A DNA stretch of 64,000 nucleotides, taken from a virus. The DNA lies in IMG/VR virus record IMGVR_UViG_3300035199_001057, positions 1-64,000 of that record; one strand, 5' to 3'. This document shows positions 2,065 through 32,262 of this stretch, one piece after another. Positions within the stretch are counted from its first letter, which is position 1, and every line of letters starts with the position of its first letter. A program made the translations under genes and the position numbers. The notes beneath the pieces were generated by a model. That model had not been told where the DNA came from. It searched no databases and saw nothing but the letters and a program-made list of their open reading frames with translations.

Positions 2065-3537
2065 CTAGTTCGATCCAGTGATCTGAGAAGGGTCTGAAGT
2101 GGTTGCCAAGTATGCCTGATTTTTCCGTAGAGAAATGGCCCCGGGCATCCCGAGAAAGAAAGGAACCTGGGCCGCGGCACCGGTGCACGCCAATTTATAA
2201 TTGGAGGACAAATTAAGATAAGAATTGATAGTAAAATCTGCGCTGAACTCGGGGTAAGTCTGTGACCCGTAAGCGCACCACTTAGAAGGGCTGGAAGTCG
2301 CTAGTTCAAAACACCCCAGGTCCGGAGGGTCTTGCCGGCTTGTGCCGCTAAGGTCTGCGCTGGTTAATCCCAAATAATTTACAGCGGTGCCGGCGCCGGT
2401 TACGACGGCAGTAGAAGTCAGGGTGTAATCAGCATATAGGTTTTTAAAATTGTCACTCGGATCTTCAAAAAGCGATATCACGCTGGCTGTTGTATATACT
2501 AGGTCGGTCGCCCCAAGGGACTGACTTGTGCCCGCAAAATTGCGATAAACCCCGTTGCCCAGAAGAGTTGAACTGCCATCTAGGCCCCCATAAAAGTTGT
2601 TAGTGGCTACGTCGGCTTGAATATAGGGGAAACTAAGGCCATCGCCTGGTGGAGGGATGCTCATGCTAACAATACAATTTTCAACGCGAGCGGCGTAGAT
2701 GCCCAATTGGCCCGTGTAAGTTGCCCCATCGTGTCTCACAAGAACTGTACAGAAACTTGCCGTACACCTGTTGTTCGTCCCTAGGGTTCCGTTGCTCGCA
2801 TTAATAGCGTTAATGGGCATATCGCCGGTCGCGCCGCTCAAGATGATCAAGCAATTATTAATTAAAGCATTTTGAGGATTATGGCTAAAATCGATTGCGC
2901 GGAAATTATTCGAACCTGTTAGTAATATGCGGCAGCTATCGACAATTGTCCACGCGTTTGTGCCGCCGGTGTCTCCAAGTCCCGTAATGCCGCCTCCCGC
3001 CGGTGCCTGACGTGGCGAGCCAGCGAGAGAGGCCGAAGCGTTAATCGTTACGTTGCGAATGTCGTAGGGGCGTCCGTTGCCTTTAATGACACCATCGGTG
3101 GCGCTAGCCCCTCCACACCCGGCAATAGTTATATTGTGAATTCCAGAGCCCGAGCCAAAAAGCTCGAAGGCCGACTTCTGAAAGAGAGCCGCCTTCCAGC
3201 TGCCAGTGGCGTTTGGCGTGCCAGGGGTTACTGTTATATCTTGCCCTTCAGAGGCGCTTATAATTATTCCATAATCATAACTTCCAAGCCATAGTTCTTG
3301 TTCAAAGCCATTGCCGGAATCATAATTAAAAAGGGGCATACCATAGGACGCAGAATATATCGTTGAGGCCCCGGAACTCTCGCTAAGGATAACATAGTGG
3401 GGTCCGGCGTCGCCAGAAAGAGTGCTTTGGATATCTGCCCGGGCAGTTTCAATGCTCTTATAGGGGCTTCCTGCAGAGCCATCGCCAGTGGCGTCATTAC
3501 CGGTCGTGACTGAAACGTATTTAGTGAGAATTGCCAT
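2065..3537 (-). CDS. Right-handed beta-helix (pectin lyase-like) virion appendage protein
   Basis: N-terminal YVSxxxGNDxxGDGSxxxPYKSI motif; repeated NxTI/NCLI/NCIV beta-helix strands; DLSGTSR..PDLGCFE resembles a choice-of-anchor Q-like end. Confidence 0.65.
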   Translation of the reverse strand: MAILTKYVSVTTGNDATGDGSAGSPYKSIETARADIQSTLSGDAGPHYVILSESSGASTIYSASYGMPLFNYDSGNGFEQELWLGSYDYGIIISASEGQDITVTPGTPNATGSWKAALFQKSAFELFGSGSGIHNITIAGCGGASATDGVIKGNGRPYDIRNVTINASASLAGSPRQAPAGGGITGLGDTGGTNAWTIVDSCRILLTGSNNFRAIDFSHNPQNALINNCLIILSGATGDMPINAINASNGTLGTNNRCTASFCTVLVRHDGATYTGQLGIYAARVENCIVSMSIPPPGDGLSFPYIQADVATNNFYGGLDGSSTLLGNGVYRNFAGTSQSLGATDLVYTTASVISLFEDPSDNFKNLYADYTLTSTAVVTGAGTAVNYLGLTSADLSGTSRQDPPDLGCFELATSSPSKWCAYGSQTYPEFSADFTINSYLNLSSNYKLACTGAAAQVPFFLGMPGAISLRKNQAYLATTSDPSQITGSN

Positions 3538-3580
3538 ACGATGTCTTTAAAATGATTTTACCTTCGATTCTGCTTATATC

Positions 3581-3588
3581 TAATTAGT
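3581..3588 (-). promoter_or_regulatory. Putative phage late promoter ACTAATTA
   Basis: Intergenic, about 44 nt upstream of the ATG at 3537. Confidence 0.6.
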
Positions 3589-3609
3589 TTTTAGTGTAAT
3601 AATCTTTAC

Positions 3610-6600: not shown

Positions 6601-6765
6601 TTCTGGGGATAGTTGTGTCTTTGTATGCGCTATATCCCCGCAATGAATAATGTAATCTACTTTTTCTTCTTTAAGCATTTTATACAGCTTTTCAAAGACT
6701 TTTTTGTACTCGTAATGATATTTTAAATTTTTAATGTGTGTATCTGCAATGTGCGCAAATTTCAT
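3610..6765 (-). CDS. Fused SbcD/Mre11 nuclease - SbcC/Rad50 ATPase
   Basis: Metallophosphoesterase motifs ADTH, GD, GNHD, GDIH; Walker A GKNFSGKS; long coiled coil; signature SGAE; Walker B ILDEP; ISH; start reassigned to MKFAHIAD at 6765 (GGAG SD). Confidence 0.92.
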   Translation of the reverse strand: MKFAHIADTHIKNLKYHYEYKKVFEKLYKMLKEEKVDYIIHCGDIAHTKTQLSPEFVELCSHFLSQLADIAPTYVILGNHDGNLKNSSRQDAITPIVEALDNPNLFLLKDSGEEVLDGDFSLNVLSVFDRDNWVSPSDAGKINIALYHGAISNSRTDLGWVMEHGEDDLSIFEGHDYAFLGDIHKTNQTLDHKGKVRYAGSTVQQNHGETNDKGFLIWDIEDKDTFSCTHHVLENPRPFITIELTPKGRLPKNTAVPPQARLRLVSNNNLSLDAMKKAVEIAKHRFKPEHITFLNRAAGTSGNVEAMATNIEADNLRDPVVQKKLIKEYLKDFQPEDELMERVLKLNSKYNSLIEDKEEIHRNINWRLEHLEWDNLFNYGPNNGIDFAKFSGIVGVFGKNFSGKSSIVDSVLYTLFNSTSKNERKNLNIINQNKDSGSGKVTVSIGNKKYSVVRESEKYIKKLKGEETLEAKTDLNFEVYDEVTDETRSLNGLTRSETDQNIRKYFGSMDDFLLTSMSSQLGSLAFISEGSTKRKEILAKFLDLEMFDIKHRAAKDDASDLRGALKRLEGRDFNEEITQATKHLLYNENETKRHAKKCAKLKEDLRVVTDETSDLTRRIDAIPTEIIDVDEIHQNLEKRIEELEGIIKNLATNGDALKEDNTLLAKITSFVDVFDIEEVKEKQEIIESKREEFDDIINEIGSLEIQRKNQEKKSSLLKEVPCGSEYSHCKFIKDAYVAVDNLSITQSIKESLESKKGKILNEIEKLDPDKVEEYQANYNSLLERKQTLDSEILNLSLKVERDETQKSSLEKEIDNLKQKEEEYHENKETIEGKEALVSQLTDLLEKTTNMSHELEGCDQELLELYKEHGSLEQKVVSLEDQKEELLNLREEYAAYDLFMRCTHSNGISYDIIKKKLPVINNEIAKVLANVVEFEVFFENDGRHLKIYIKHPRHEPRPLEMGSGAEKTIAAMAIRLALLTVSNLPKSDLFILDEPGTALDADNMEGFISILELVKSYFKTVLLISHLDSLKDCVDKQITIEKRDGYALVNEF

Positions 6766-6775
6766 ATTTTCTCCA

Positions 6776-7699: not shown

Positions 7700-7734
7700 T
7701 CAGAGAGCGCACTTGTTTCAAACATATGTTTAAT

Positions 7735-7763
7735 ACTTTACACTATCACTTCGTCGTTGTCAA
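7735..7763 (-). promoter_or_regulatory. Sigma-70-type promoter for primase and Mre11-Rad50
   Basis: Minus strand TTGACA-N17-TAAAGT overlapping the end of the resolvase gene, 36 nt before the primase ATG. Confidence 0.6.
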
Positions 7764-8295: not shown

Positions 8296-8305
8296 AATTT
8301 ATTTC

Positions 8306-9490
8306 CTATATGTCTAATTTTAACTTAAATGTGAAATCTCGTAAAGCAGTTTTTTTGATGGGGGTGGCTAGATTGGCCACTGCGATGAGATTTTTATTCT
8401 TATCGTAAATTCCTATTTTGTTTATAAACGTTTGATGCTTAAAGTCCGCCTCAAATCGGTAAAACGAACTGCTCACAGTATTGAATATTTCAATATTTTC
8501 AGATTCTTTATAGTGATAGGTGCCAGTTTGAGGCTGGTTTGTCGCAGCATCGTATGAAACTTTATCCAGGAGTGTTTGGTTGGCAGAAAAATTGAGTTCG
8601 GATCGGGGCGCCGTTGCGAACATGGTTAGAGTTTCAATGGGGTTCGTCCCTTCAAATTTAAATCTAAAGCTAGCTGAAGGGGTGATATCCGACGACCCAT
8701 CATTCGCGCCCAAAGCAAAGTCAATCCAGCGGAATGGACCGCTGTCTGTGTCGCGAGCAAAGGATTTCACCGTTAGGCCCCAGCTTCCAGTAAGAACAAC
8801 CACCCCCTCGTTATACAAAACAACTCCTGCAACCGAGCCGCTTCCATTCGTCTGCGCGATAGCACTCCCTGATACCTGTATTAACTCGCCGTTGCGGTAC
8901 AGGTCTTGAGCCTCCGCCGCGAGGGTACCAGAAATATAAAGTTGAAGAGTGGCGGTACCAGGATATATCTTGCTTCCGTAAAAAATGGAAGGGACATACA
9001 AAAGCGATAACTCCTGCACCGCTTTGTTGCCCAACGAAGATGAATAAGCGTAGTGGTTGGAGAGGGGTTGATAATAGTTGAGCGCTGTGCGCAAGGCGGA
9101 GACGTGGGATCCTGTTGGAAAGAGGGTTCCGTGATTGGCTACAAAGTGCTCTCTGGACAAAGACGCCGACATTGGATAAGACCCCGTGATGGAATCCCCG
9201 TATTCGAAGCTACTAAAGTAGTCCTTAAGGGAAACGTTCCCGATCGCTTCAAAGCTGCCATCTTTGGTAACGAAGGGGTAGGCTAAAGAGTCAGAAGGTC
9301 TGTCGACATTTATCTCATATAAACTTAGATTGCCCACCGGGACGCAACCCACGTTGCCCACGAAGGCGCCTGAAATTGCGTTCCTATTGTTAAGGTATAT
9401 ATTGCCGGCGTTAACGTCAAATTGAACTTCGGGGTGAGTCTCTAACGTATTGTGGAGAATCTCGTTCTCTTTAAACTTGTAGTAAGGCAT
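8306..9490 (-). CDS. Virion structural protein (baseplate/tail-fibre anchor-like), paralog of 9526..10569
   Basis: C-terminal IGIYDxNxNLIAVANLATPIKK..FKLKLDI; located in the tail module. Confidence 0.6.
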   Translation of the reverse strand: MPYYKFKENEILHNTLETHPEVQFDVNAGNIYLNNRNAISGAFVGNVGCVPVGNLSLYEINVDRPSDSLAYPFVTKDGSFEAIGNVSLKDYFSSFEYGDSITGSYPMSASLSREHFVANHGTLFPTGSHVSALRTALNYYQPLSNHYAYSSSLGNKAVQELSLLYVPSIFYGSKIYPGTATLQLYISGTLAAEAQDLYRNGELIQVSGSAIAQTNGSGSVAGVVLYNEGVVVLTGSWGLTVKSFARDTDSGPFRWIDFALGANDGSSDITPSASFRFKFEGTNPIETLTMFATAPRSELNFSANQTLLDKVSYDAATNQPQTGTYHYKESENIEIFNTVSSSFYRFEADFKHQTFINKIGIYDKNKNLIAVANLATPIKKTALRDFTFKLKLDI

Positions 9491-9525
9491 CGATATTTCT
9501 CTAAGTTGTTACGATTACTAAACAT

Positions 9526-10569
9526 TTAGTAATCAAGGCGCACACGTAGAGTAATCTCATTTGATGGCGACTTTTTCAAAGGTTCGGAAAGCTTTGCAAC
9601 CGCCAGCAATTCATTATCAGGAGAGTACAGGCCAACTGACGTGATATACGCCACTGGGTCAGCTGCCGGGTTGTTGCCCTTCACAATAATTTGAGATGCG
9701 GACAAATACGTGGTATTCGCAGAGTAGTTATATTCGGTGTTATGGGCTCTCGCAAAATAGATGGTAGAGTTAAGCTCAGTGGTATTGTTGAATTGCGCGG
9801 TGTCATACGTGAACCTCAAACCATCGGAAAGTTGATTGATTGTTGCGCCGGTAAGCATTTGATTGATACTAGCGGTCATGGTGCTGTCGTTGTCTTGGGC
9901 ACCGAAATAGCCTTTCCAGACGGAGGCTGTCAACACCACGATGCCAGCTTGATAATAAATGTGGCCAATGGACGCGGTTGCTGGCGCGTTTGAAGACGAG
10001 AACAACAGTCCGTATTCACCGGCTGGGCTGTTTGTCCTATAGGTGGTTTGCGCATTATAATCGCCAATCGTAATGGGATTCTTTGTTGCCAGGCCGTAGC
10101 CCGATGACCCAGTATATACTGTCAGCCTAAAGGAATCTTTCTTAATCTCATCCTTGTTTAGAAGTCTGGCAAATGAGATAAAGACGCATTCGCGCATATC
10201 ATCTGTCAAATCATTATCATCAGCGCCATCCCTATCGAAACTCTTTATATTGCCACTCGTATCGGTGTTGTTGAGTACCAAGGCCATCTGATTGTAAATG
10301 TTAATTTTCTTTGTGTTCTGGGTGTTTGCGGAAGAGGATAGCGCCGAGCCTGAAGCGTAGCCCCAGGTTATGTCAAAAATGTGATTGGCGGAAGAACTCA
10401 AGTATGGATAATCATAAACCGACTGAAACATGCCGTGGGCGTATTCTTTAATGTTGTTCTCAGCGTAGGTACCCGAAACAATTGTTCCAGTGATTGGGAT
10501 TGCCTCGTGTAAAAGCGTGCGAGTGTTCGCCACGTCTTCGGGCAAAAAAGTCTTGAATGAGTTAGCCAT
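9526..10569 (-). CDS. Virion structural protein (baseplate/tail-fibre anchor-like), paralog of 8306..9490
   Basis: C-terminal VGLYSPDNELLAVAKLSEPLKK..RVRLDY; AGGAG SD. Confidence 0.6.
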   Translation of the reverse strand: MANSFKTFLPEDVANTRTLLHEAIPITGTIVSGTYAENNIKEYAHGMFQSVYDYPYLSSSANHIFDITWGYASGSALSSSANTQNTKKINIYNQMALVLNNTDTSGNIKSFDRDGADDNDLTDDMRECVFISFARLLNKDEIKKDSFRLTVYTGSSGYGLATKNPITIGDYNAQTTYRTNSPAGEYGLLFSSSNAPATASIGHIYYQAGIVVLTASVWKGYFGAQDNDSTMTASINQMLTGATINQLSDGLRFTYDTAQFNNTTELNSTIYFARAHNTEYNYSANTTYLSASQIIVKGNNPAADPVAYITSVGLYSPDNELLAVAKLSEPLKKSPSNEITLRVRLDY

Positions 10570-10591
10570 TATGTTCTCCTAAGTGTAGCTG

Positions 10592-11593: not shown

Positions 11594-11611
11594 AATTGTG
11601 CTCCTTTTTAT

Positions 11612-11619: not shown

Positions 11620-11666
11620 CCCTTTTAAAGTATATTGATCCATTATACACACATTCCATGCTATTT

Positions 11667-20107: not shown

Positions 20108-20109
20108 CG

Positions 20110-23100: not shown

Positions 23101-26100
23101 GCCAACATCGAAAGGCGAGTAAGTTGTTGCGGCGCCTCCTACGGTCTTTAAACGAATTTCTTCCGAGGCTCCAGAGAAGGCCACCGCGTTCGTATAACCG
23201 GGGAGAAGGCCGTAAGTAAGATTGCTGGCCGTAAGAGCGTACGCCGTGATCAGAGGGATCCTGCGCACATAACTTGGCGCTGCGGTGATGTGCGACGAAG
23301 GAGAAGAAAGGGGTGAATAGTGAAAAAGGTTATAACAATTTTGTAACTCTCCGGTGCCGTCGCGCACTGGCATGGTGGCGGAAAATGGAATGTAATTAAT
23401 CGTAGTTGTGAACTCCGGGTGTGCGTCCATGTTCCACAAGCTTGATGATTTAATGGCAACATCCGCAAAATTCACTAAATTCGCCTTCAAGCGGTCACTA
23501 CGCGAGTTGCGCCAATAATCATTAGCGAAGCGCAGCCGTCGGCGGGATTCCGACAGATAAGTAAATTGCTCTTTAGGGTAAATCACCTCGGTATAGAGAA
23601 CTTCCGTGGCAAGTTTTCTGTTAGATTTTTCTACAAGCGCTTTCATAGCGAGATAGGGCGAATAAGTTTTCGGTCGCACCTTTCCGTAAACCAGGGCTGT
23701 GTCAAGAATAACCCCGTTAGTGTTTAGTATGTCGGCGCTATGATCGGTAAACATCACGTTTTGATTGCCATAAGTCATTACAGTCTTGGCTACGTGGTCT
23801 TCGGTGTCAGATGATGGCATATATATGCGCAAAGGCTTATATTTACTAGTGGCAATTGGCTCCGTGAAGTTGCGAATCTTTTTAAGAAATTTCCCCGGCT
23901 GGCCGCCCCCGAAGCCAATCGCTTCTCCAGGGAAAATATAACCAATAGTGTTGTGAGCTTGCTGGGCACGGGCAATTGGGTGTTGTGCGCCTCGAATCTG
24001 TTTCCAAGAGGGCCAACCGTATGGGCCTTGGCGGTGGAGGATAACACCGTTAAGCAAGGAGGCTACCGAAAATTGAACGTTGGCGGCGACTGCGCCGACG
24101 CCATTCGTGCACAAAGATTGTCCCATGTAATTATACCATGCTGAACTTGCGCAATCCAGGCCCATTCCGCCAGTGTCGCCGCGGCGTATCTCTCCCCAGC
24201 CGATGCTATTCTGCGAAAGAGATGCTGTTTCGTAAATATTATAATTCAAACCTACGAAGTCCGTAAAGCCTTGGGCCGATGGCGCAAATCCTCCTGGGGC
24301 ACGTGTGTTTTTATCCTGCCCCCACCAGTGACCCCCAAGAAAATCATAAGAAACAAAGTCACTAGCGCTACAAAATGTAATATCCGTAGAGGCATAGTCC
24401 GCTCTCGCCATATTCCTTTGCTCGTATTGGTATAAAGCCGAACCGCTATAATCGCTTACCAGGCTTGCGGTTATCCACGCATACTGTAAATCTGTACGCG
24501 GAATAGGATGTTGTACAAAGAAATTATCGTATTCCTTGGCGCCCGGAGTGATAAGGTAATAAGCCCCGCCGGTAAGATAGTTTAAAGAAGATTCCGCTGG
24601 GTTGTGGGGGGCCAATGGCACACTAAGATGGTTTTTGTTTCCGTTTAATCCCACATCCAGTACACCGTCGGTGACGCCGGCGCTTAAATCGTCACAGAAA
24701 GTAGGATCTGACTCTTTGCAGCCGTCTCCCAGTCGCCACCATGAGACTAAATATTCCTTTTCAGTGTGATTATTAAGATTGCCCGGGCCGTAGCCTGCCC
24801 CGTATACCCCGGAATCACCTTCAAAAATCTCTCTAATTCCCGCGGCATTTAAAGCGATGTTCCAATAGCTTACTTCGTCGATACCTCCATCGAAGTAATC
24901 GTCCAGAGTGCCCCCTTCGTCGCGGGCGCCCAAGAGCAATGGTGCCGTTGATTGCTTGATGGTTACCGTATCGTGAATTACAAGGGTGCGCGAACCTGTA
25001 ACACCATTGACATAGGTATTGAATTTTTGCGTCGCCTCGTCAAAAGTAAAAGCCAAATGAGTCCACGTGTCTACCGCCAAAGTAGAAGCCGGAGTGTTAT
25101 AAGAAATATATCCGCCTCCGCCGCCTAAATCTGCCCCGCCGTTGCTAAAAACAGCAAAGTTTACAATCGATTGGTTTGTGGCAGAACAGTTAACTTCAAA
25201 ACTTTTATTTAGCGCTGAGGTGTAGTCGCCTTGCGACGCAATTGACATTACAGGGCCTGTGCCCGTATCTAAGGATTCTGGCTTTACCCAGGCAGAAAAG
25301 GTAAAAGCTTTTGCGTTTCCTATGATTGTAGGGCTAGCTGCGCCCGAAAGATACTGCGCGCTCCCGCTTTCGAAATCCACATATTTTGGGTTGACAAAAG
25401 TTTCCGTTGAGTCAGATAAATTCAATGTTCTCAAGGAGTTGCGATTAACCTTTTGAAAAGAAGCTGTGGCGTCTTGGTAAGCCCCTTTGGCATAATACGA
25501 TCCTGTGTTCACAGAACCGCTTGTGCCTGGATATGCTTTTCCTGCGCGCACGTAACTCGCCGAATTGAACGCATCGCTAAAGTAACCGAATTGTTTGCTG
25601 TGATCAGATAGGAGACTCCGCAGTGGTTGGCGTACCGTTAGATTTCGCCATGGCAGTGCGTTATAAACTGAATACTCGTTCGCCTCAATATCTAAGAAGC
25701 CCAAACCGTTAACTTCGGGGCCGCCGGGAGCCGAAAAGCGATTAACAATAACCCAATCATTTCGGGTGCGATCCGGAAGGGCGTAGTCGAAGACCCCTGA
25801 AATAAGGGTTTCAGCTGAAGAAGCCGTGATAGCACCTACTTCGGTGAGATAGACATTATTAGTAGAGCGTCCATTTGTTAAGACAACTTCATAATCTTTG
25901 GTATAGTTTCCAATATGGGTGATATTAGAGGCTGTCGTTTGTTGGATGTTTCTAATGTTTACGGGACGTTTCGCGGTTTCATCTCGATAGTACAGCGCTG
26001 TGGGCCTAGAACCTAAAGTGTTCCCGTATGGCGCGCCCAAATAAAGAAGCGTCGTACCCGGGCCGGTGTGGAGATATGTAATTGACCACCCTTCTGGGCG

Positions 26101-29100
26101 CGTCTCCGCGGTATCTAGATTTGAACCAGAATTCAAAGCGATGTGGCGGTACTGAAGGCCTCCCACAAATTTTTCGGTGAAGGGCCCCTGCATGGGCACT
26201 TCTTTGTCATGACCGTAAACGTCGTCGTGAAGATTTGTAACAATGGCGCCAGTCTGAAAATTATTAATCAGCGTAGAATCCACACCGCCTAGATCAACCG
26301 ACGAGCTATATAGACTAAAAGGTGTCCACTGGCGAATCTTTACCTTGTCTTCATAACCCCATATACTAAAATCGAGACCCGTCTGGTTATCTCGCTCGAT
26401 CATTCCTTCCCATTGTCGTTTTTTTGCGCCCAGCTTCTCTAGCTCTAAACTATCGGCACAGTCGGGGAAAGGGTGAAGGCCCGCGGGCAAATTCGCATAA
26501 GGTACGGCATTCTCATAACCCCGAATAGAGGCGACGATACCGTCGGAGTCTGTATCTCCTTTACGTACAGCATCCAAAAGGAAGTTATAATTCTTATTGG
26601 GATAATAGTTGCTACCACCTTTAATCGGTTTCTCTAGAGTCGACAAAACCTTATAAGGCTTCGCCAAGCGACGGATCGCGTAGGTAGATCCCGAATATTG
26701 CGCGCTCGTGACGCTATCTTTAAGGGTGTAATCGGGGGCGTTCGTTTCATTGTTATTGGATTCTAAAATTTCTTGCTTATCGATATCCAATTGGGTATCC
26801 CCAGACGCCAAGACCGAAGTCTTTCTTGAGGCGCGCTGGAGCCACCAGCGGCAATTATTTTTCTGGAGATCATCTAAGGGGGCATGACCATACTTCCAAT
26901 TGTAAGTAAGCTCATTGATTCCAAGCACTTGCGCGTTAAATTCCGGGATCATTTCTCTTATAATTGGCGGTTTGTTCCGGAATTTGTTCCGGTCGCCCAA
27001 GACAAAGTTCTCTATAACCGTAGAGAGCCCCTCCCGCAACATATCTAAGGACGCGGGGACCAGCTTCTGGATATATCGGCTAACTGCGTAATCGATATAT
27101 TTGAAGTATTCTACATACTTATCGAAATCATAGTCGTTATCAACCTTTTCAAAGTATTGGTTTCCGGCTTTTATCAACTCTTTGTATTGGCCGCGATATC
27201 GATTGACGTTGGTGCCCAAGAGCGTGTTAAAATAACCTACCGAAGCAAACATGTTAAGCATGTCTTCCGAAATATCTTGAAATAAGTTCTTTTCAATCGA
27301 CAAGTTATATGTGATGGGTCGACTCCCGCGCGTATAAAAATCATCTGACTGGTTTTCGATTATATTAACCAAATTAGAGTCTAACAACACCTCCGGGACT
27401 TGTTGTTGAAGTGTTCCGCGTTCAAGTTTTTGTACAGCGTTGGCTGAGGAGGTGGCAAAAAAGCTACCGGATGCCGTGTGGCGTCGGTCGACCACTCCGC
27501 TAAACCAGCCTTGGCCTGCGGCTGCGGCGCTTCCCGAAGAGGCATCCTCCACGGCAAACTGGCCGACGGCATTGGAAGAAGATACCGCATTAAAGTTCCA
27601 GCGAAGGGCTAATGTATCTATCTCCGGAATTTCTATCCTATTGATAGCATTTTGATATAAAAAGGCATTTTGGGTGGGAGAACTCGCACCGTAATTGTCC
27701 ACCTTCATATTATGCTGGTCGATAACCGCAGTGTCTAGTGGCATATACCAGGCTTTGACCTCCGTGGCTTTAGTGTCGGCAAATTGTAATAGCGCGCCCG
27801 TAAAGTTGGTCCGATGAGCGCCGGCATATACGCGCTTGTGGCTGGCCAGGAAATTTCTTCCTTGCTGGGTTGTCATGGACCCGGTCACCAAAAAGCTCTT
27901 ATGCTTTAGATCCCCAATGTAATTGCATCCATAAAACTGGACTATGTAATTCTCGGGGCGTGAGCCAGAGGGCTGATTAAGTTGAGGGTATCTCTTGGGT
28001 CTGATACTAACAGAAACGGACCATCGATCATCGTCGTAAATATCTTCAAAATAGGAGGAAGTGAGAAGCGGTATGCCGCTGCCCGCAGTGGATGTGAGTA
28101 TAAATTTGGCATTGCTAGAGTACTTGTCATCCTTCGCCGTATAAACTTGGAAGTTCGCATAATCATTTGTATCCCATGTTAGGTCGTTTTCTGTACCATT
28201 AGCGGTGTGTAAACCGAACAAAGAGGAAGATACGATGAGAGGGTAAAGATTGCTATAAGAGCTGCTTAAGCCGGGCTTAAGTGTCGCATACTCCATGATC
28301 CCGACGCGGTTGGGGAGAATGAAGTCCCCTTCGAGCGTAAAGCCCAAACCTGAACCTTCGTAGCCACCGCTATAGTCCTTTGTTCCTGAAATATACGACG
28401 TTGCGTTACTGTCGGTTCGGTACTGATAAACGCTAGCGTCTCCGTTATCAATCTCGTTAAAGTTAACATAGCTTTTTGTTTTTATGGTCTGCTTCGTATT
28501 GTCTTCCAGTTGGTAGGCGGTATTGTTGGCGTATACGTTGAACTTTAAAACATTATCGCCAAGGCCAAAGCATCTCAAAAGGTTGCGAAATGCTTTTTCG
28601 GTACCTTTTGACTTATTGATATACGTTAAGTTGTTGTAAATGTTCTGATAAATGGTGTTCTTAATTTCTTGGAGGGTGTGCTCGTATTTAAGATGATCAT
28701 CGCGATCCTCAAATTGGTTCAACAGGCCAGCATTGATAAAGATGTCCGGAACAATGAAGCCCTTGGACTCTAGAAACCTCTTATTAAAGGGCGGAGCGAA
28801 CGATCCAGAGGTATAGTATTTCTCATGTTTTAGGGCCGGCAGCTTGTCCATCAGAATAGCGGCTGAGTCAAAATAACTACCGATGATCTGAAGGGCGTTG
28901 AGTAGCTGATTTTGGTCTAAATTCTCAAAATCCGTTTCATTGGCTTGGAGCATCCATTGGGGTAAATATGAATCCAGCCCGTTGCCATTGGTGTCATCGT
29001 GAATGCGTCCCTCAAGCTTCTTTTGGGTCTTAAACGCCGCCACATTGGGTTGGAATGAATAGATGATCGGGTCCTCAAATTCCATGGGGCTAGCCGATGA

Positions 29101-30384
29101 CGAGATTATAGCCGATCCGGTGTTTCGTGAATATAGGGTAGAATAGCCTGTCCATGCGCCATTTGAAATGCGTCCGGAAAAGTCCAAGACAGATGAGTCG
29201 ACAGAGGCTGTTTGAGTGATGCCCTCGTTAAATTTATAATAAACGCCCAAATCCGTGTTCGCGGGATCGCTATTAGTCCCGGCGCCCACTTGGCCGAACC
29301 AATAGCGTTGTATTTTTTCGGAGGTGCGGAAGGTTTTCCAATAACGAAATTCGTCGAGGGAGCCCGATAGTTTAGCATACCCCCGATCAGGACCGTCGAT
29401 ATATACGTTACCGGAGGGAGATTGGCCGAGGGCGCCCAATGTGGCCACCAAAGCCCCGCTAACATAAGAAACGGCTGTGCCGCCGATGACGCGATGGTTA
29501 TGATCGCCGTCAATAAAGAGATCGCTTACAACATTGCTCCCGGTGTTCTTAAAACGAAACGCGTAATGATGCCACGCGTCGTCGGCGACCGTTGCGGCTG
29601 TGATTGAACTGCCGATGCTAGTCTGCGCGAACCCGGTGGTTCCGGACATATAAGTAACCAAGAAGGGGCTTCCGCTTGCCGCGCCTGTCATTTCAATTCG
29701 TAAACGCGCATAGTCCGCGGAACTGCTGAGAGTGCCCGTGACAAATACGTCTAAAATGACTTCTTTTTCCGTGGCGCTGTTGTCAAACGCGGCTTTTTTC
29801 AGCCAAAATTCTACAGTGTTGCCGTCGGTGCCTCCGATCTTAAGATTGTTCTCTCTATTTTTAGAGAGATCGTAAATATTAGCATCTTTTCGGAAGACGG
29901 TTTTGTCTTGTTGATAGTCATAATATAAAGATTTGCCTGTGCCCGGGTTCGGGCCGCCTTTAATCAAGATGTATTCATAGGAAGAAGTGCCCGCTGCACC
30001 ATATCCATTATACATATCTGTAGCAGTCAGGCTGGAAGTGGTCAGCGTGATATATCCGGTTGTACGCGGATAGCCGTTCTCAAAAATATAGAGGTCCAGG
30101 TAAGAAGAGCTTAACTCCCAAAGTGCTTTTTCTTTCAGGGATCCATCATAAGGATAGGTGTCATAAATGCGACTAATAGAGTCTTCATAATATTTTTCGG
30201 CGGATCCGAAACGAGCGAATGCTTTAGGATTTGCGAACTCTTCCAAGGGTAGAAAACGATGGTTACGTTCGCGCACGGCCGCCATAAAATCAAAAGATTC
30301 TATTTGATTATCTATATCTTGTTTTGTAAGAGGCTCTGGACTTTTTAAGTTCTCGTCCTCTTTAAATAAATCTTTTAGCGACAT
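20110..30384 (-). CDS. Giant baseplate wedge/tail protein (gp7/gpI-like motif) with LamG/ConA-like domains
   Basis: 3424 aa; LamG motifs TVEFW..WHHYAF..LFIDG..GSLDEFRYW and FTFSAWVK..WTHLAF..YVNG..GGIDEVSYWN; KSKGTEKAFRNLL resembles the P2 gpI KGT motif; follows gp25 and gp6/J genes. Confidence 0.7.
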   Translation of the reverse strand: MSLKDLFKEDENLKSPEPLTKQDIDNQIESFDFMAAVRERNHRFLPLEEFANPKAFARFGSAEKYYEDSISRIYDTYPYDGSLKEKALWELSSSYLDLYIFENGYPRTTGYITLTTSSLTATDMYNGYGAAGTSSYEYILIKGGPNPGTGKSLYYDYQQDKTVFRKDANIYDLSKNRENNLKIGGTDGNTVEFWLKKAAFDNSATEKEVILDVFVTGTLSSSADYARLRIEMTGAASGSPFLVTYMSGTTGFAQTSIGSSITAATVADDAWHHYAFRFKNTGSNVVSDLFIDGDHNHRVIGGTAVSYVSGALVATLGALGQSPSGNVYIDGPDRGYAKLSGSLDEFRYWKTFRTSEKIQRYWFGQVGAGTNSDPANTDLGVYYKFNEGITQTASVDSSVLDFSGRISNGAWTGYSTLYSRNTGSAIISSSASPMEFEDPIIYSFQPNVAAFKTQKKLEGRIHDDTNGNGLDSYLPQWMLQANETDFENLDQNQLLNALQIIGSYFDSAAILMDKLPALKHEKYYTSGSFAPPFNKRFLESKGFIVPDIFINAGLLNQFEDRDDHLKYEHTLQEIKNTIYQNIYNNLTYINKSKGTEKAFRNLLRCFGLGDNVLKFNVYANNTAYQLEDNTKQTIKTKSYVNFNEIDNGDASVYQYRTDSNATSYISGTKDYSGGYEGSGLGFTLEGDFILPNRVGIMEYATLKPGLSSSYSNLYPLIVSSSLFGLHTANGTENDLTWDTNDYANFQVYTAKDDKYSSNAKFILTSTAGSGIPLLTSSYFEDIYDDDRWSVSVSIRPKRYPQLNQPSGSRPENYIVQFYGCNYIGDLKHKSFLVTGSMTTQQGRNFLASHKRVYAGAHRTNFTGALLQFADTKATEVKAWYMPLDTAVIDQHNMKVDNYGASSPTQNAFLYQNAINRIEIPEIDTLALRWNFNAVSSSNAVGQFAVEDASSGSAAAAGQGWFSGVVDRRHTASGSFFATSSANAVQKLERGTLQQQVPEVLLDSNLVNIIENQSDDFYTRGSRPITYNLSIEKNLFQDISEDMLNMFASVGYFNTLLGTNVNRYRGQYKELIKAGNQYFEKVDNDYDFDKYVEYFKYIDYAVSRYIQKLVPASLDMLREGLSTVIENFVLGDRNKFRNKPPIIREMIPEFNAQVLGINELTYNWKYGHAPLDDLQKNNCRWWLQRASRKTSVLASGDTQLDIDKQEILESNNNETNAPDYTLKDSVTSAQYSGSTYAIRRLAKPYKVLSTLEKPIKGGSNYYPNKNYNFLLDAVRKGDTDSDGIVASIRGYENAVPYANLPAGLHPFPDCADSLELEKLGAKKRQWEGMIERDNQTGLDFSIWGYEDKVKIRQWTPFSLYSSSVDLGGVDSTLINNFQTGAIVTNLHDDVYGHDKEVPMQGPFTEKFVGGLQYRHIALNSGSNLDTAETRPEGWSITYLHTGPGTTLLYLGAPYGNTLGSRPTALYYRDETAKRPVNIRNIQQTTASNITHIGNYTKDYEVVLTNGRSTNNVYLTEVGAITASSAETLISGVFDYALPDRTRNDWVIVNRFSAPGGPEVNGLGFLDIEANEYSVYNALPWRNLTVRQPLRSLLSDHSKQFGYFSDAFNSASYVRAGKAYPGTSGSVNTGSYYAKGAYQDATASFQKVNRNSLRTLNLSDSTETFVNPKYVDFESGSAQYLSGAASPTIIGNAKAFTFSAWVKPESLDTGTGPVMSIASQGDYTSALNKSFEVNCSATNQSIVNFAVFSNGGADLGGGGGYISYNTPASTLAVDTWTHLAFTFDEATQKFNTYVNGVTGSRTLVIHDTVTIKQSTAPLLLGARDEGGTLDDYFDGGIDEVSYWNIALNAAGIREIFEGDSGVYGAGYGPGNLNNHTEKEYLVSWWRLGDGCKESDPTFCDDLSAGVTDGVLDVGLNGNKNHLSVPLAPHNPAESSLNYLTGGAYYLITPGAKEYDNFFVQHPIPRTDLQYAWITASLVSDYSGSALYQYEQRNMARADYASTDITFCSASDFVSYDFLGGHWWGQDKNTRAPGGFAPSAQGFTDFVGLNYNIYETASLSQNSIGWGEIRRGDTGGMGLDCASSAWYNYMGQSLCTNGVGAVAANVQFSVASLLNGVILHRQGPYGWPSWKQIRGAQHPIARAQQAHNTIGYIFPGEAIGFGGGQPGKFLKKIRNFTEPIATSKYKPLRIYMPSSDTEDHVAKTVMTYGNQNVMFTDHSADILNTNGVILDTALVYGKVRPKTYSPYLAMKALVEKSNRKLATEVLYTEVIYPKEQFTYLSESRRRLRFANDYWRNSRSDRLKANLVNFADVAIKSSSLWNMDAHPEFTTTINYIPFSATMPVRDGTGELQNCYNLFHYSPLSSPSSHITAAPSYVRRIPLITAYALTASNLTYGLLPGYTNAVAFSGASEEIRLKTVGGAATTYSPFDVGNYGLRKMPLPVRYSASVGDTLWEVTSSTGKDITPFYDSYNDYAEEGTRIMQEGTILPEFRISEKMASYYSAAADKNWVLTFPTKDNFKTDTATVSAAQYALRIQDGLLELTGASYNHLTETDKFLNRYAFSDFYRHFKLIKKDYNDNRPVTQTVEQLVEKKARSRTPLLSLGCEALMKLVPYDGFYPAQRSVQLASLFSASYYNSKALSSTGAAGPMAGGQQSWRTAMQPFYAPGIFYNTIKSGIAVDYPIHSPSAIEPLRGWPASSDVWGHSISGSFTQRVNFEQIVNGPATLTIKDTDPFLDTRLNSTASIKQAQSPLYKFAANNFFSEVTNFFIDSGRPTGIYPAYTLPETVNIPVSGVYVMDIVLRNSTNIVDMKSYCEATASLLAPSASSLFVNSSSFIMYSRANTGHSIDSHLYGSSFGPPVRSGYVIFEASSGAGAYVYRNIASFEPYTPPYYDGYASCRMSIGLEAQSGLLIEDVLNNLTMSYSSLPTFTPLSSSQTTLWDGTAQTNAMQVSASLNFGQAPKDAGSEGGNWIFTNENNPADRRLVIHSKFECPVLDFSTTAPTEPFSNSRLGSAAGLSGSVARGMWHQMGTPPVSGNGLWMEVQDPSHWLQTERPEGSPHFNNANEYKSLSFILGFTKGVQNPKKIGVMPKSRTLSEAIVAIPFKVVGDLNAAITETELYRMSPSAVDAAKNSVEPFGNAGPDSKYSSATTGPIFKDKVVFQSPSFSEYEYTDLIKDYWREIPPEAPEGVDPAIYKLLSLMRKYVIPPHLDFLHNSDIDPFTMYMWEFETSLDEEDLRNMWQNTAPKIAKRAIKATSDVITHVLPTTPGQAHVPSPLGPNPGTGGWLDLDALKDAQDKKDDLDAYFGPHPYFLDVFDEDKTRWAVFKVKKRGRNNYANIAGRQEINGIQFLREGVEFPHDFAYSYNWPHDFFSLVELAKITSTVTFNPQTLNPAGLMAQILDSDEVKKATMVSKIIGNLADLGSDEGD

Positions 30385-30387
30385 TTA

Positions 30388-32262
30388 TTACTCTACTCTA
30401 AATCTAAATTGCGGTGTTTGTTCCACATAGTTCCCATTAACCTTATAAACAAAATTAAGGGCATAAATCTCATCGGTCTGTAACATTGACATATCGAAAT
30501 CAAAGTAGCTACCGCTGTTATCATAAGATAATTTAGTCTGATTCTGGCTACCAGTTCCATAGGCTACAATATTGTAATTGTCTGAGATTCTCGTTATTTT
30601 ATAGTATACATTTTCCACAATATCGTTCGGGGTATCCACACTCGCCTTTACATAAATGTTCGGCTGCCAATTCTTCTTGCGTGTATAGAGTCTAAAGCGC
30701 GCCGTTTCTTCAGTGCTGTATGAATCCCTCAAATTAGTAATATTGGAAACATAAGTTTGATTGGGGTTATACCCGGACGCATTAAATGTTTTTACGGTAA
30801 TTGCGGATCCCGTGTGATATTGAACCATTTCAGCGGCTGTGCTGCTTGTGTGCCACACATCATAAATGGTTGTGATGCTGGAAGAAGCATAGGCAAAGGA
30901 GGCCGAATATATCCCCGTTTCAACAAAAGAGGCCGTTATATTAATATCCCCGGTGGCTGTGACTCCGCCGCCGATGGGGAGAAAGAGCTTGTCGCCAGTT
31001 GGCGCGGCTGATGACGTGATCCCTGCGGTGGTTCCGCTATAAATACTCACGAAAACGTTACCAGTACCTACCGCAGGAATATTGGTAAGCTGACCTTTAA
31101 CCACATTATACAAATAAAGCTTCATCAAGTTATCGGAAGCTGGTACAAGGGAAGAACTTAGATAAAAATTTCCCCTATCGTCCAACTTGCTGTTGTCCCA
31201 GCGAGCTTCGACGATGGGCCTTTTGAAAAAGAACTGCGATCCTCGCGCAAAGAACATTTTAGTGTAATAAGATACGGTGGCGCCCTCTTCGCTGCTCGTC
31301 AAAAAGACTCCTAAACCATAATTGCTTTTGAGGCCCATGTCCGTGTCAGTAGGCAAATTATCGCTCGAACTCAGCCATTGCTCCATCAGAGGTGATATAT
31401 CAATCTCCAGGTCTTCAAAGCCGGTGGTGAAAGTTTGTTGAAAAGAAGACGAAGGGGTATAATCATAGTCGCCCCCTTCGGTAGTCCAGGCCGTGTAATC
31501 CGAACCAGCCGTTGTTGTGGTTAGAGATATGACTTCTACATTGCCGGTGGGGGCAGTAACTGCTCCCGCGGTGGCGTTTTGTATACCTGCGTCAGCGGAG
31601 TCGACGGTGGAAGTAAATTGGCTTTGATCATCTACAACAGTTTTAAAAGTATCAGCGTAATGTGCAGCAGTTGTGAGGCCGCCGGCGGATATATCAACTT
31701 CAATCTCTGTACCGTCGATAGTGGGGGCAGAATCGTCCCCGTCGTTGAACCAAAAGTTATACCTATTGTCGCTGGCATCATATAAGCTTATGTATTTCCC
31801 CCCATAGTCTCCTTTCGTATTTGAAAGAAAGGAAGCGGTGGCGACTTGCGCAATTTTTGTATCAGTGCGGTACAGCCAATTAGACTCGTCAATGTCAGAA
31901 TAGTTTTCCATATCCAGGCCGACGCCTTCTTGCCAATCGGCGGTAAGAGCCGAAGCAGTTAATATAAAATTGGCCGGTGTTGGCTGGGAATGGGCCGCAT
32001 TAAACATTCGCAGATAAAAAGAGACGCTTCCACTGGCAGGTATTGTTCCTGCGGTTCGGTCCGTGGCGATAGTGTCCGTTGGAAACCGCACAAGAATGCG
32101 GCAGTTCTCGGAGGAGTCCGAAGATGCCTGGCCATATATGTGGAATACTTCCAATATATCTGATTGGCCCATGTTGCCGGATACGCCGCGCGTGGTGAGG
32201 TTTGCTTTGTAAGCATTCGTAATAGTGTTGTCTCTATCCGCTGTGTATCTTTTAATCGCCAT
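30388..32262 (-). CDS. Baseplate-associated protein with DNRLRE-like N-terminal domain
   Basis: ADRDNTI..NMG.SDILEV..RILVRF..LRMFN..WQEG pattern; TAATG coupling to the baseplate J gene. Confidence 0.55.
   Translation of the reverse strand: MAIKRYTADRDNTITNAYKANLTTRGVSGNMGQSDILEVFHIYGQASSDSSENCRILVRFPTDTIATDRTAGTIPASGSVSFYLRMFNAAHSQPTPANFILTASALTADWQEGVGLDMENYSDIDESNWLYRTDTKIAQVATASFLSNTKGDYGGKYISLYDASDNRYNFWFNDGDDSAPTIDGTEIEVDISAGGLTTAAHYADTFKTVVDDQSQFTSTVDSADAGIQNATAGAVTAPTGNVEVISLTTTTAGSDYTAWTTEGGDYDYTPSSSFQQTFTTGFEDLEIDISPLMEQWLSSSDNLPTDTDMGLKSNYGLGVFLTSSEEGATVSYYTKMFFARGSQFFFKRPIVEARWDNSKLDDRGNFYLSSSLVPASDNLMKLYLYNVVKGQLTNIPAVGTGNVFVSIYSGTTAGITSSAAPTGDKLFLPIGGGVTATGDINITASFVETGIYSASFAYASSSITTIYDVWHTSSTAAEMVQYHTGSAITVKTFNASGYNPNQTYVSNITNLRDSYSTEETARFRLYTRKKNWQPNIYVKASVDTPNDIVENVYYKITRISDNYNIVAYGTGSQNQTKLSYDNSGSYFDFDMSMLQTDEIYALNFVYKVNGNYVEQTPQFRFRVE

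What the first reader, a model, noticed from the sequence alone, without database searches (positions are those of the whole stretch)
2065..32262. Dispersed [S/T]-[G/A/S]-S tripeptide marks a subset of virion proteins: candidate sequon of a phage-encoded virion glycosylation system
Seen (hand counts of [ST][GAS]S): about 50 in the 3424-aa protein, about 15 in 624 aa (30388..32262), 9 in 394 aa (8306..9490), 9 in 347 aa (9526..10569) and about 10 in 490 aa (2065..3537). Neighbouring structural proteins have far fewer: 0 in the 596-aa gp6/J and about 7 in the 3224-aa protein. A rough composition-based expectation for the 394-aa protein is 1-2. Sites are scattered singly in otherwise complex sequence (ITGSY, MSASL, YSSSL, LTASV, VSGSA), often between hydrophobic residues, not in linkers, and they recur across unrelated folds. 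Inference: selection maintains a modification site on exposed virion proteins. The obvious candidate writer is the sugar cluster at 49.7-64 kb, which would give a glycan-coated particle.
Basis: partly seen in the sequence, partly recalled or inferred. Interest (0 to 1): 0.9.

Follow-up and report, generated by a model that had tools for sequence, protein, structure and literature searches.

The report
Serine tripeptide tag on phage tail proteins
Five tail-region proteins of this uncultured aquatic phage carry the short motif Ser/Thr-small-Ser about four times too often, and related phages that lack the phage's sugar-building gene island have lost the motif, so it is probably, though not proven to be, where the phage attaches its own sugars.

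Summary
[ST][GAS]S occurs 93 times in five proteins against about 24 expected, and in no other of the 69 ORFs of the 89-kb genome. The signal is directional (position 3 is strictly Ser), lies at the protein level (all codons are used), survives 10-residue local shuffles and sits between hydrophobic residues. Only two of the five proteins are paralogs. The excess is kept across hundreds of homologs while most positions turn over. It also occurs in two cultured relatives (Flavobacterium phage immuto, Microcystis phage Mel-JY01) but not in T4 or cyanophage S-SM2. The trait belongs to the genome. In 11 relatives where a conserved glycosyltransferase pair abuts the tail module with no sugar island between them, two unrelated proteins fall to about 1.3x. 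A genome with a 3-kb island shows about 2.2x, and island-bearing genomes show 2.35-5.7x. Homologs in island-less phages keep the flanks but replace the motif, so the fold does not need it. The best reading (about 0.6) is a sequon for phage-encoded O-glycosylation of distal tail proteins. No sugar has been seen, exposure was not tested, the writer is unresolved, and independent losses are few. The scan reached the same reading before on other genomes of this phage group.

The parts
30388..32262 (-). 624-aa protein directly downstream of the gp6-like baseplate wedge gene; motif-rich (15 sites vs 3.7 expected)
   Evidence: 63 homologs pooled: 799 vs 210.9. 51 distinct enriched homologs carry 13.7 +/- 2.2 sites, but only 4 of 83 site columns are occupied in at least 80% of them.
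20110..30384 (-). 3424-aa giant tail/baseplate protein with a ConA-like (Laminin_G_3) domain; motif-rich (50 sites vs 12.7)
   Evidence: No internal repeats by BLAST. Homologs in the 50 enriched loci have ratios 2.35-5.69.
9526..10569 (-). 347-aa protein, distant paralog of the 394-aa protein; its C-terminal domain is shared with several Mel-JY01 and immuto tail-region proteins; motif-rich (9 vs 1.8)
   Evidence: The L044 homolog (46% identity) has replaced most sites.
8306..9490 (-). 394-aa protein of a very large marine metagenomic family, beta-sandwich core in the model; motif-rich (9 vs 1.8)
   Evidence: The 120 listed homologs average 9.25 sites vs 1.87 expected. Third-position Ser is kept at 0.88-1.0 in 7 of 9 sites.
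2065..3537 (-). 490-aa protein with a weak N-terminal match to a PHROG tail protein; motif-rich (10 vs 3.9), the weakest of the five
32262..34052 (-). gp6-like baseplate wedge protein, motif-free (0 vs 1.0); its homologs are depleted
   Evidence: 69 homologs pooled: 25 vs 107.6 (the homologs are not independent).
34579..44253 (-). 3224-aa protein upstream of the baseplate wedge genes, not enriched (7 vs 5.0); internal negative control
   Evidence: 24 homologs pooled: 61 vs 85.9.
48245..48937 (-). Late sigma factor-like gene, one of the conserved leader genes (with 47955-48260, 48927-49247, 49244-49492 and 49493-49744) that form the tail-side border of the sugar island
   Evidence: phrog_234, E 5.1e-06. 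Conserved at the island border in relatives.
49734..64000 (-). Window part of the hypervariable sugar island, which continues to genome position 70898: APS kinase, UDP-glucose dehydrogenase, FkbM and C-methyltransferases, two 4,6-dehydratases, a sulfotransferase-FkbM fusion, a nucleotidyltransferase, a 2,3-dehydratase and a B12 radical SAM enzyme. Beyond the window lie an aminotransferase, a GT1-like+GT9 fusion, heptose/octose-type enzymes and X280 (genome 70056-70898), then the conserved pair GT416 (70895-72145) and GT448 (72145-73491).
   Evidence: The island position is occupied by different gene sets in relatives.

Best explanation
The tripeptide hydrophobic-[S/T]-[G/A/S]-S-hydrophobic is a selected modification site, most likely an O-glycosylation sequon on the third-position Ser. 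It is written in the cytoplasm by phage-encoded soluble glycosyltransferases onto a subset of tail-region proteins: the protein after baseplate gp6, the giant protein, two paralogous small proteins and a fibre- or spike-like protein. The glycan is built by a fast-changing island of sugar genes. That island sits between a conserved pair of GT4-type glycosyltransferases and the late sigma factor and tail module, much as variable O-antigen or flagellin-glycan loci sit between conserved flanks. Selection acts on site density as well as on individual positions, which fits a glycan coat. Shown here: the motif excess, its directionality, its protein-level origin, its maintenance with turnover, its independence of fold, and its co-variation with the island. 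Inferred: that the modification is a sugar, that the Ser is the acceptor, that the sites are exposed, and which enzyme reads the motif.
For: (1) Specific, directional, protein-level motif in 5 of 69 ORFs, 93 sites vs 24 expected. (2) It is not inherited with a repeated domain: only the 394- and 347-aa proteins are paralogs, at 26% identity. (3) It is maintained in homologs. The 394-aa family (120 proteins) averages 9.25 vs 1.87, and substitutions stay within the class (TGS/SGS; SAS/SSS/TAS). The 624-aa family keeps 13.7 +/- 2.2 sites while 57 of 83 site columns are occupied in under 10% of members. (4) It is not generic to myovirus fibres: 20 T4 tail, baseplate and head proteins and S-SM2 gp6, gp7 (4156 aa, 16 vs 18.7) and gp8 are at expectation. 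(5) It is a genome-level trait. In 54 loci the ratios of the 624-aa homolog and of the unrelated giant protein are both low in 4 loci and both at least 2.35 in 50. (6) The fold does not need it. L044 homologs at 40-46% identity keep the flanks but replace the sites, for example TAS to TTD, TGS to RGG and SAS to NNS. (7) It co-varies with the island. 13 of 80 sigma-factor-anchored loci have GT416 abutting the leader genes. In the 11 such contigs with tail genes in hand, the giants pool to 166 vs 129.4 (ratios 0.38-1.63) and the 10 newly fetched 624-aa homologs to 18 vs 13.5. The complete genome G021, with a 3-gene island (4,6-dehydratase, GT1-family, GT2), is intermediate at 2.29 and 2.15. In 14 enriched genomes where the island region is visible, the island is at least about 8 kb (matched by contig name by eye). 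(8) The GT448+GT416 pair is among the few genes shared with the cultured, motif-positive Mel-JY01 and immuto, each followed by its own small glycan island. GT448 is 57-64% identical in 4 of 5 long enriched contigs. Its best solved relative is entry 3oy2, 'Glycosyltransferase B736L', E 2.5e-10. (9) Hosts of motif-positive cultured phages belong to different phyla (Microcystis, Flavobacterium), which favours a phage-encoded writer.
Against: No chemistry: no glycan has been observed on any of these proteins. GT448 and GT416 are intact, with the EGFGL..E stretch kept, in the motif-less L044, and the pair is present in all 13 island-less loci, so the only universally conserved GTs are not sufficient. 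No third GT family is common to all motif-positive lineages. The L068/L069/L071 clade has low ratios (1.3-1.8) although a UDP-glucose dehydrogenase and two more ORFs lie at the island position in G008, so the coupling is not strict. Independent evolutionary events are few: the gp6 tree needs only 2 changes, and the relation of the 10 further island-less contigs to L044 was not tested by a tree, so they may be one clade. The Mann-Whitney p of 7.5e-7 therefore overstates the evidence. RM378 and the 484-kb phage LR756508 carry GT448-like genes but show only moderate or weak enrichment. Some sites lie at helix N-caps or strand starts in the model and may be structural. Phage GTs can also act on DNA (passage read in PMC12619734).
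Confidence: 0.6

Rival explanations
1. The motif is a recognition site for a different trans-acting factor: another modification (phosphorylation, sulfation, acylation, methylation) or a tail-fibre assembly chaperone. That factor happens to be lost or changed in the same lineages as the sugar island.
For: The genome-level co-variation shows a trans-acting factor but not its chemistry. This phage's island also holds an APS kinase, a sulfotransferase and several methyltransferases. The GT pair persists without the motif. A search listing shows that host-dependent methylation of a phage tail protein has been reported (PMC13445384, abstract only).
Against: Sulfo- and methyltransferases are not conserved between islands. 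The only functional theme common to the islands of motif-positive genomes is sugar synthesis and transfer. The minimal 3-gene island that goes with partial enrichment encodes only a sugar dehydratase and two GTs. No kinase or chaperone candidate was found to co-vary, but no systematic search was made.
Confidence: 0.15
2. The motif is a structural element (a Ser/Thr turn, a helix N-cap or a strand start) favoured by the folds of these proteins, and its distribution among phages reflects shared ancestry only.
For: In the model of the 394-aa protein the sites lie at loop-strand or loop-helix boundaries. Seven sites in that family are conserved in position at 0.86-0.99. Three sites are kept even in L044. 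The island-less phages may form one clade (relation not tested; one search covers only L044).
Against: Homologs with the same folds do without most sites. Two unrelated proteins gain or lose the excess together. Most site positions turn over while the number is held. Unrelated fibre and baseplate proteins of T4 and S-SM2 show no excess. Position 3 does not accept Thr, which is unusual for a purely structural Ser/Thr cap.
Confidence: 0.1
3. The glycosyltransferases and the island modify something else (DNA bases or a host surface polymer), and the tail-protein motif is unrelated to them.
For: Phage GTs are reported to glucosylate DNA and to change host serotypes (passage read in PMC12619734). 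In Mel-JY01 and immuto the GT pair lies next to a PD-(D/E)XK nuclease gene. The pair is retained where the motif is lost.
Against: This leaves the selected protein motif and its co-variation with the island unexplained. No base-hydroxymethylase was noticed in the 89-kb fragment, but that was not searched for specifically.
Confidence: 0.1

Closest known systems
Virion O-glycosylation of mycobacteriophages by phage-encoded glycosyltransferases (Freeman et al. 2023, Cell Host Microbe; the paper is not held, and is known here only from passages citing it in PMC12619734 and PMC12582341)
   Same: The phage carries its own soluble glycosyltransferases, and structural virion proteins are the proposed acceptors.
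   Different: There the glycans are reported at the C-termini of capsid and tail-tube subunits. Here the candidate sites are a defined tripeptide dispersed through tail-region proteins. The sugar genes form a hypervariable island of 3 to more than 20 kb. The phages are large aquatic myoviruses of Gram-negative hosts and cyanobacteria. Glycosylation has not been demonstrated here.
Flagellin and pilin O-glycosylation islands of bacteria (Campylobacter, Aeromonas, Caulobacter FlmG; PMC7591256 abstract seen; the rest recalled)
   Same: Cytoplasmic O-glycosylation of Ser/Thr on an exported or assembled fibre protein; highly variable glycan loci that often make nonulosonic acids. NeuB was confirmed by Pfam in one representative of a family found in 16 of 60 island sets, and a cytidylyltransferase in one representative of a family found in 18 of 60. 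immuto annotates a 'pilin glycosylation protein'.
   Different: No short sequon is known for flagellins (recalled). Maf- or FlmG-type transferases were not looked for here. The acceptors are phage tail proteins.
Chlorovirus capsid glycosylation by virus-encoded enzymes; PDB entry 3oy2 'Glycosyltransferase B736L' (that it comes from a chlorovirus and its proposed role are recalled, not returned by a tool)
   Same: GT448's best solved relative by sequence is 3oy2, E 2.5e-10 over residues 37-342. A virus is proposed to glycosylate its own structural protein in the cytoplasm.
   Different: Eukaryotic algal virus; N-linked, atypical glycans on the capsid protein (recalled). Similarity is distant and says nothing about the acceptor.
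GtfA/GtfB two-protein O-GlcNAc transferase of serine-rich repeat adhesins (recalled)
   Same: An adjacent pair of GT4-type proteins; acceptor motifs of Ser alternating with small residues; later elaboration by variable accessory transferases.
   Different: No GtfA or GtfB chain appeared among the PDB sequence matches up to E = 1. Both phage proteins keep the EGFGL..E stretch, so neither looks like an inactive partner. The phage sites are single tripeptides in complex sequence, not long low-complexity repeats.
General O-glycosylation of Bacteroidota with the sequon D-[S/T]-[A/I/L/V/M/T] (recalled)
   Same: A three-residue O-glycosylation sequon used on many unrelated proteins.
   Different: A different motif: here position -1 is hydrophobic, not Asp. 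That system works outside the cytoplasm through a lipid-linked glycan (recalled), whereas phage tails assemble in the cytoplasm.

Membership tests
Mycobacteriophage-type virion O-glycosylation | Phage-encoded glycosyltransferases | tested here: met
   GT448 matches Glycos_transf_1 at E 2.4e-13, GT416 at E 3.5e-05 (below Pfam's cut-off), and a GT1-like+GT9 fusion is present.
Mycobacteriophage-type virion O-glycosylation | Glycans demonstrated on virion proteins | not testable with these tools
   Needs mass spectrometry or glycan staining of virions.
Mycobacteriophage-type virion O-glycosylation | Acceptor sites at the C-termini of capsid and tail-tube subunits (as summarised in PMC12619734) | tested here: not met
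   Candidate sites are dispersed along tail-region proteins, for example residues 92 to 3014 of the 3424-aa protein. The capsid and tube genes of this phage were not identified.
GtfA/GtfB serine-rich-repeat glycosylation | Sequence relationship to GtfA or GtfB | tested here: not met
   phmmer against all PDB chains up to E = 1 gave 62 matches for GT448 and 2 for GT416, none named GtfA, GtfB or Gtf1.
GtfA/GtfB serine-rich-repeat glycosylation | One catalytic and one non-catalytic partner (recalled) | tested here: inconclusive
   Both proteins keep an EGFGL..E stretch in all 6-7 homologs aligned. That this is the catalytic GT4 motif is recalled, and activity was not tested.
Autotransporter heptosyltransferase-like (AIDA/TibC type) protein O-heptosylation | A GT9-type transferase conserved wherever the acceptor motif is present | tested here: not met
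   The GT1-like+GT9 fusion (genome 64468-66180) has no match in Mel-JY01 or immuto, and its family occurs in 13 of 60 island sets.
Bacteroidota general O-glycosylation | Sequon D-[S/T]-[A/I/L/V/M/T] (recalled) | tested here: not met
   Position -1 is enriched for L, I, A, V and Y. Asp is not among the residues enriched at -1.
Flagellin-type variable glycosylation island | Hypervariable sugar-synthesis locus between conserved flanks next to the acceptor's structural genes | tested here: met
   All 80 GT416-anchored loci show at least 4.5 kb of island where the leader genes are in view, or no leader genes within the downstream sequence held, and gene content is mostly unrelated between islands. 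Pfam on one representative each confirmed NeuB and a cytidylyltransferase.
Flagellin-type variable glycosylation island | Maf- or FlmG-type flagellin glycosyltransferase | not tested
   No search with those families was made.

The most novel reading that the evidence does not exclude
An abundant group of large aquatic myoviruses, with cultured members on Flavobacterium and Microcystis, coats its outer tail proteins with phage-made glycans at a defined three-residue sequon. Site density is under selection, and the glycan chemistry diversifies through a hypervariable island in the way O-antigens do. This would be a viral glycan coat with its own sequon code, written in the bacterial cytoplasm.
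Probability: 0.5. Interest if true: 0.85.

Novelty: new variant of a known kind. Interest (0 to 1): 0.78.

Why it matters
If the motif is a sequon, it would be a short, defined acceptor code for a cytoplasmic protein O-glycosylation system, carried by phages that are very common in marine metagenomes. More than 3,000 homologs of one target protein passed E <= 0.001 among the 8,000 candidates scored. It would mean that the host-facing parts of these phages are sugar-coated and that the coat diversifies rapidly. That bears on adsorption, host range, and resistance to proteases and grazers in the ocean. It would also give glyco-engineers a compact tag and a soluble enzyme set. Two cultured relatives carry the same architecture, so the question can be tested directly with existing isolates. 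None of my five library searches turned up a paper describing such a tail-protein sequon.

Tried and rejected
DNA-word explanation: rejected, because all synonymous codons are used at the sites.

Regional composition: rejected by block shuffles of 40, 20 and 10 residues.

Repeat or paralogy explanation: rejected, because an all-against-all BLAST found only the 394/347 pair.

Fold identification of the 394-aa protein: the AF2 model has mean pLDDT 72. Foldseek against the PDB found nothing at E <= 0.001, and VIA-align wide gave a best Z of 5.8, within the tool's stated noise. No fold assignment is made.

DNA and protein searches of the cultured-phage collection with the 624/gp6 region and with the 394-aa protein found nothing. 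The gp6-like protein did find relatives.

GT9 fusion as the general writer: rejected.

X280 as the general writer: rejected. It is absent from Mel-JY01, immuto and RM378.

A shared GT2/GT-A family across all motif-positive genomes: not found. The small GT-A is shared only by Mel-JY01, immuto and RM378.

A replacement motif in the non-enriched phages: none found in L044. L069 and L071 keep a weak [ST]GS excess, while L068 does not.

A search for more relatives with L044's own GT416 found only itself and one other contig.

An apparent lack of a giant gene in some loci was an artefact of my ORF finder, which dropped open-ended ORFs.

The careful tree search did not finish in time, so the quick IQ-TREE tree was used.

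Freeman et al. 2023 could not be read because it is not held. 'Mel-JY01' occurs in no held paper.

Not used: complex prediction, read laying, the look-up of sequencing runs, the metagenome scan, the search of protein representatives and the second structure job.

Dropped rows: the partial giant of L285 (656 aa, ratio 1.06) was left out of the rank test. One search covers the 54 of 63 loci in which a downstream frame of at least 500 codons was in view. In one search, 118 of 121 sequences (those of 370-430 aa) were aligned. Alignment A1, used for the fold, holds 67 of the 121 sequences in hand.

Full report
WHAT IS THERE. The window is the first 64 kb of a single 89,130-bp contig, and all long genes are on the minus strand. 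It is a fragment of a large myovirus. It has gp25-like and gp6-like baseplate wedge proteins, a primase, a RuvC-like resolvase and an SbcCD-like fusion. It also has a late sigma factor-like gene, PhoH and a long block of sugar genes. Complete relatives are about 184 kb.

THE OBSERVATION. Whole-protein shuffle means were 3.9, 1.8, 1.8, 12.7 and 3.7. The gp6-like protein has 0 sites and the 3224-aa protein has 7.

Over the whole genome, 5 of 69 ORFs are flagged, and they are these five. The other 64 ORFs hold 25 sites against 34.2 expected.

The excess is not regional composition, because it survives shuffling inside 10-residue blocks in all five proteins. It is not a vague Ser-rich bias either. 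In an unbiased scan of all 8000 tripeptides, the top of the list for the five proteins is TAS, SGS, SSS, TGS and SAS. The mirror forms SAT, SGT and SST and all TxT forms are at expectation, and STS is 0 against 4.1. So position 3 must be Ser, position 2 is small, and position 1 is Ser or Thr.

All synonymous codons occur at the sites, so selection acts on the protein. The residues on either side are hydrophobic in 60 and 64 of 93 sites, against a background of 0.40. Only the 394- and 347-aa proteins are related to each other (26% identity), and the giant protein has no internal repeats detectable by BLAST.

IS IT SELECTED? The 394-aa protein belongs to a very large marine family: 3172 proteins passed E <= 0.001 among the 8000 candidates scored. 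The 120 listed homologs (51-97% identity) carry 9.25 sites on average against 1.87 expected, with a minimum of 5. Seven sites are conserved in position. Where they vary, they vary within the class (TGS/SGS; SAS/SSS/TAS; TGS/TSS). The third Ser is kept at 0.88-1.0 in 7 of the 9 sites.

In 71 related viral loci, 63 homologs of the 624-aa protein pool to 799 sites against 210.9. Nineteen closed homologs of the giant protein pool to 726 against 213.5. The 69 gp6-like proteins next door pool to 25 against 107.6, and 108 ORFs with no match in this genome pool to 145 against 144.4.

In 51 distinct enriched homologs of the 624-aa protein, the number of sites is held at 13.7 +/- 2.2. Yet only 4 of 83 site-bearing alignment columns are occupied in at least 80% of sequences, and 57 are occupied in under 10%. 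Selection therefore holds the density of sites while most positions turn over.

IS IT GENERIC? No. Twenty T4 tail, baseplate, fibre and head proteins are at expectation, with one marginal case (gp48: 7 vs 2.9, p 0.024). So are gp6, the 4156-aa gp7 (16 vs 18.7) and gp8 of cyanophage S-SM2.

The closest cultured relatives by the gp6-like protein (about 31% identity) are Microcystis phage Mel-JY01 and the Flavobacterium immuto phages. Both show the same excess in the equivalent proteins downstream of gp6 and none in gp6. Examples are Mel-JY01's 718-aa protein (11 vs 1.9) and an immuto tail spike (60 vs 20).

A GENOME-LEVEL TRAIT, NOT A FOLD-LEVEL ONE. In 54 loci I could score both the 624-aa homolog and the unrelated giant protein. 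In 4 loci (L044, and L068/L069/L071) both ratios are low: 0.8-1.5 and 1.35-1.78. In the other 50 loci both are at least 2.35.

A gp6 tree (quick IQ-TREE, because the careful search did not finish) places the two low lineages separately inside the enriched marine clade, with enriched outgroups. At least two changes are needed.

In L044 the homologs of the 347- and 394-aa proteins (46% and 40% identity) keep the flanking sequence but replace most sites with non-motif residues. Three sites are kept. The same folds therefore exist without the motif. This argues against a structural explanation and for a trans-acting reader.

WHAT CO-VARIES. Few genes are shared with Mel-JY01 and immuto. Among them is an adjacent pair of GT4-type glycosyltransferases, GT448 and GT416, at genome positions 72145-73491 and 70895-72145, just outside the window. 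GT448 is 57-64% identical in 4 of 5 long enriched contigs, and the fifth contig is 66% complete. Its best solved relative is 3oy2, 'Glycosyltransferase B736L'.

In this phage and its marine relatives the gene order is as follows: GT448, GT416, then usually a roughly 280-aa virus-only protein (X280), then a variable island, then small leader genes and the late sigma factor, then the tail module. X280 lies at genome 70056-70898 and was missed by my first ORF pick. It occurs in 46 of 60 island sets, and its neighbouring clusters in the protein atlas carry Glycos_transf_1.

The islands differ almost completely between phages. Their recurring families include 4,6-dehydratases (36 of 60), aminotransferases (25 of 60), and NeuB plus cytidylyltransferase (16-18 of 60). 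The last two were named by Pfam on one representative each.

immuto and Mel-JY01 have the same layout with small islands of their own. All 80 loci closest to our GT416 carry an island of at least 4.5 kb where its end is in view.

In L044 the two GTs are present, with their EGFGL..E stretches intact, but they abut the leader genes with no island and no X280. A scan anchored on L044's sigma factor then found 13 island-less loci among 80, plus one with a 3-kb island.

I fetched the distal tail genes of 10 further island-less contigs. Their giant proteins have ratios 1.53, 1.42, 1.36, 0.95, 1.63, 1.41, 1.06 (a partial protein), 0.38, 0.92 and 1.38, which pool to 152 against 119. Their 624-aa homologs pool to 18 against 13.5.

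The complete genome G021 has an island of only three genes: a GDP-mannose-4,6-dehydratase type enzyme, a GT1-family GT and a GT2. It is intermediate at 2.29 and 2.15.

In 14 enriched genomes where the island region is visible, the island is at least about 8 kb (matched by contig name by eye). A rank test of 50 enriched against 10 island-less giants gives p = 7.5e-7. The island-less contigs may be one clade, so this is not a count of independent events.

WHAT SPEAKS AGAINST A SIMPLE STORY.
- The only GTs conserved in every motif-positive lineage are also intact where the motif is gone, so they are not sufficient.
- No third GT is universal.
- The L068 clade has lost most of the motif although sugar genes lie at the island position in one of its contigs. 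Two of its members keep a weak [ST]GS excess.
- RM378 and a 484-kb uncultured phage carry GT448-like genes with only moderate or weak enrichment.
- Exposure of the sites was not tested. In the one model made, the sites lie at the boundaries of strands and helices, which would fit either loops or structural caps.
- No glycan has been seen.

MECHANISM PROPOSED. The inferred steps are as follows.
1. Late in infection the phage makes nucleotide sugars with its island enzymes.
2. Soluble GTs transfer sugar to the third-position Ser of the motif on tail-region proteins in the cytoplasm, before or during assembly. The small middle residue and the hydrophobic flanks define a short turn that the enzyme can reach.
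3. Island GTs and tailoring enzymes elaborate the glycan. In this phage these are methyl-, sulfo- and aminotransferases.
4. Diversifying selection on the coat drives island turnover and keeps site density high.
5. Lineages that lose the island lose the benefit, and the sites decay.

I put about 0.6 on glycosylation, about 0.15 on another modification or reader, about 0.1 on a purely structural motif, and about 0.1 on the GTs serving another target.

COMPARISON WITH WHAT IS KNOWN. Virion glycosylation by phage-encoded GTs is established for mycobacteriophages. I saw this only as passages citing Freeman et al. 2023, because the paper itself is not held. There the glycans sit on C-terminal parts of capsid and tail-tube subunits. 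The present case differs in the acceptor proteins, in having a defined dispersed tripeptide, and in the hypervariable island.

It works most like bacterial flagellin glycosylation islands. It resembles the GtfA/GtfB system only loosely, and sequence tests for that membership failed.

Five library searches gave no paper describing such a tail-protein sequon.

The scan's own earlier notes report the same motif and the same island link on other genomes of this phage group. Those notes are unchecked AI readings. I reached before seeing them, and searches test the same claim on my own data.

VERDICT. This is a new variant of a known kind of system. It is of high interest because the signal is strong, the group is abundant, and cultured relatives make it directly testable.

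Noticed in passing
genome 70056-70898, minus strand (L001:7056-7898), outside the window: A roughly 280-aa gene (X280) directly after GT416 overlaps its neighbour and was dropped by my greedy ORF pick. It belongs to a virus-only family present in 46 of 60 island sets. Its atlas neighbours carry Glycos_transf_1.
   Followed up: partly
window 32262-34052 and its 69 homologs in L003-L073: The gp6-like baseplate protein is strongly depleted in the motif (25 vs 107.6 pooled; 0 vs 1.0 here). This may be avoidance of the motif in a non-target protein. The homologs are not independent, and the depletion is not seen in Mel-JY01, immuto or S-SM2 gp6.
   Followed up: partly
L074/L198 (Mel-JY01 record positions 83441-84932): The GT448 homolog of Mel-JY01 is annotated as two ORFs (190 and 302 aa), so it is either split or frameshifted.
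   Followed up: no
genome 74503-75282, minus strand (L001:11503-12282): A 259-aa protein with a weak, below-threshold match to the anthrax lethal factor domain family (E 1.8e-05, 25 bits vs cut-off 27.4). It is conserved near GT448 in L109, L112 and L210.
   Followed up: no
genome 79361-80527, minus strand (L001:16361-17527): A 388-aa protein with a weak, below-threshold Tubulin/FtsZ GTPase match (E 0.0014, 19.4 bits vs cut-off 33), possibly a phage tubulin.
   Followed up: no
window 3610-6807: A single 1065-aa ORF matches an SbcD-like nuclease in its N-terminal part and SbcC-like ATPase in the rest, an SbcCD fusion also present in Mel-JY01.
   Followed up: no
L289 (G021) and L279-L288: The giant protein downstream of the 624-aa homolog reaches 3777-4834 aa in relatives and keeps its place in every genome examined, whether or not it carries the motif.
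   Followed up: no
L099-L105 (Rhodothermus phage RM378): RM378 has a GT448-like gene followed by a 425-aa ORF, and a small GT-A homologous to the one next to the GT pair in Mel-JY01 and immuto. Three of its ORFs are motif-enriched (for example 8 vs 1.7 at 64825-66276), and the genome-wide total is 114 vs 65.
   Followed up: partly
G003 and G005: The GT448 matches in two relatives each include one in-frame TAA according to the genome search. I did not check whether this is only the alignment running past the gene's end.
   Followed up: no
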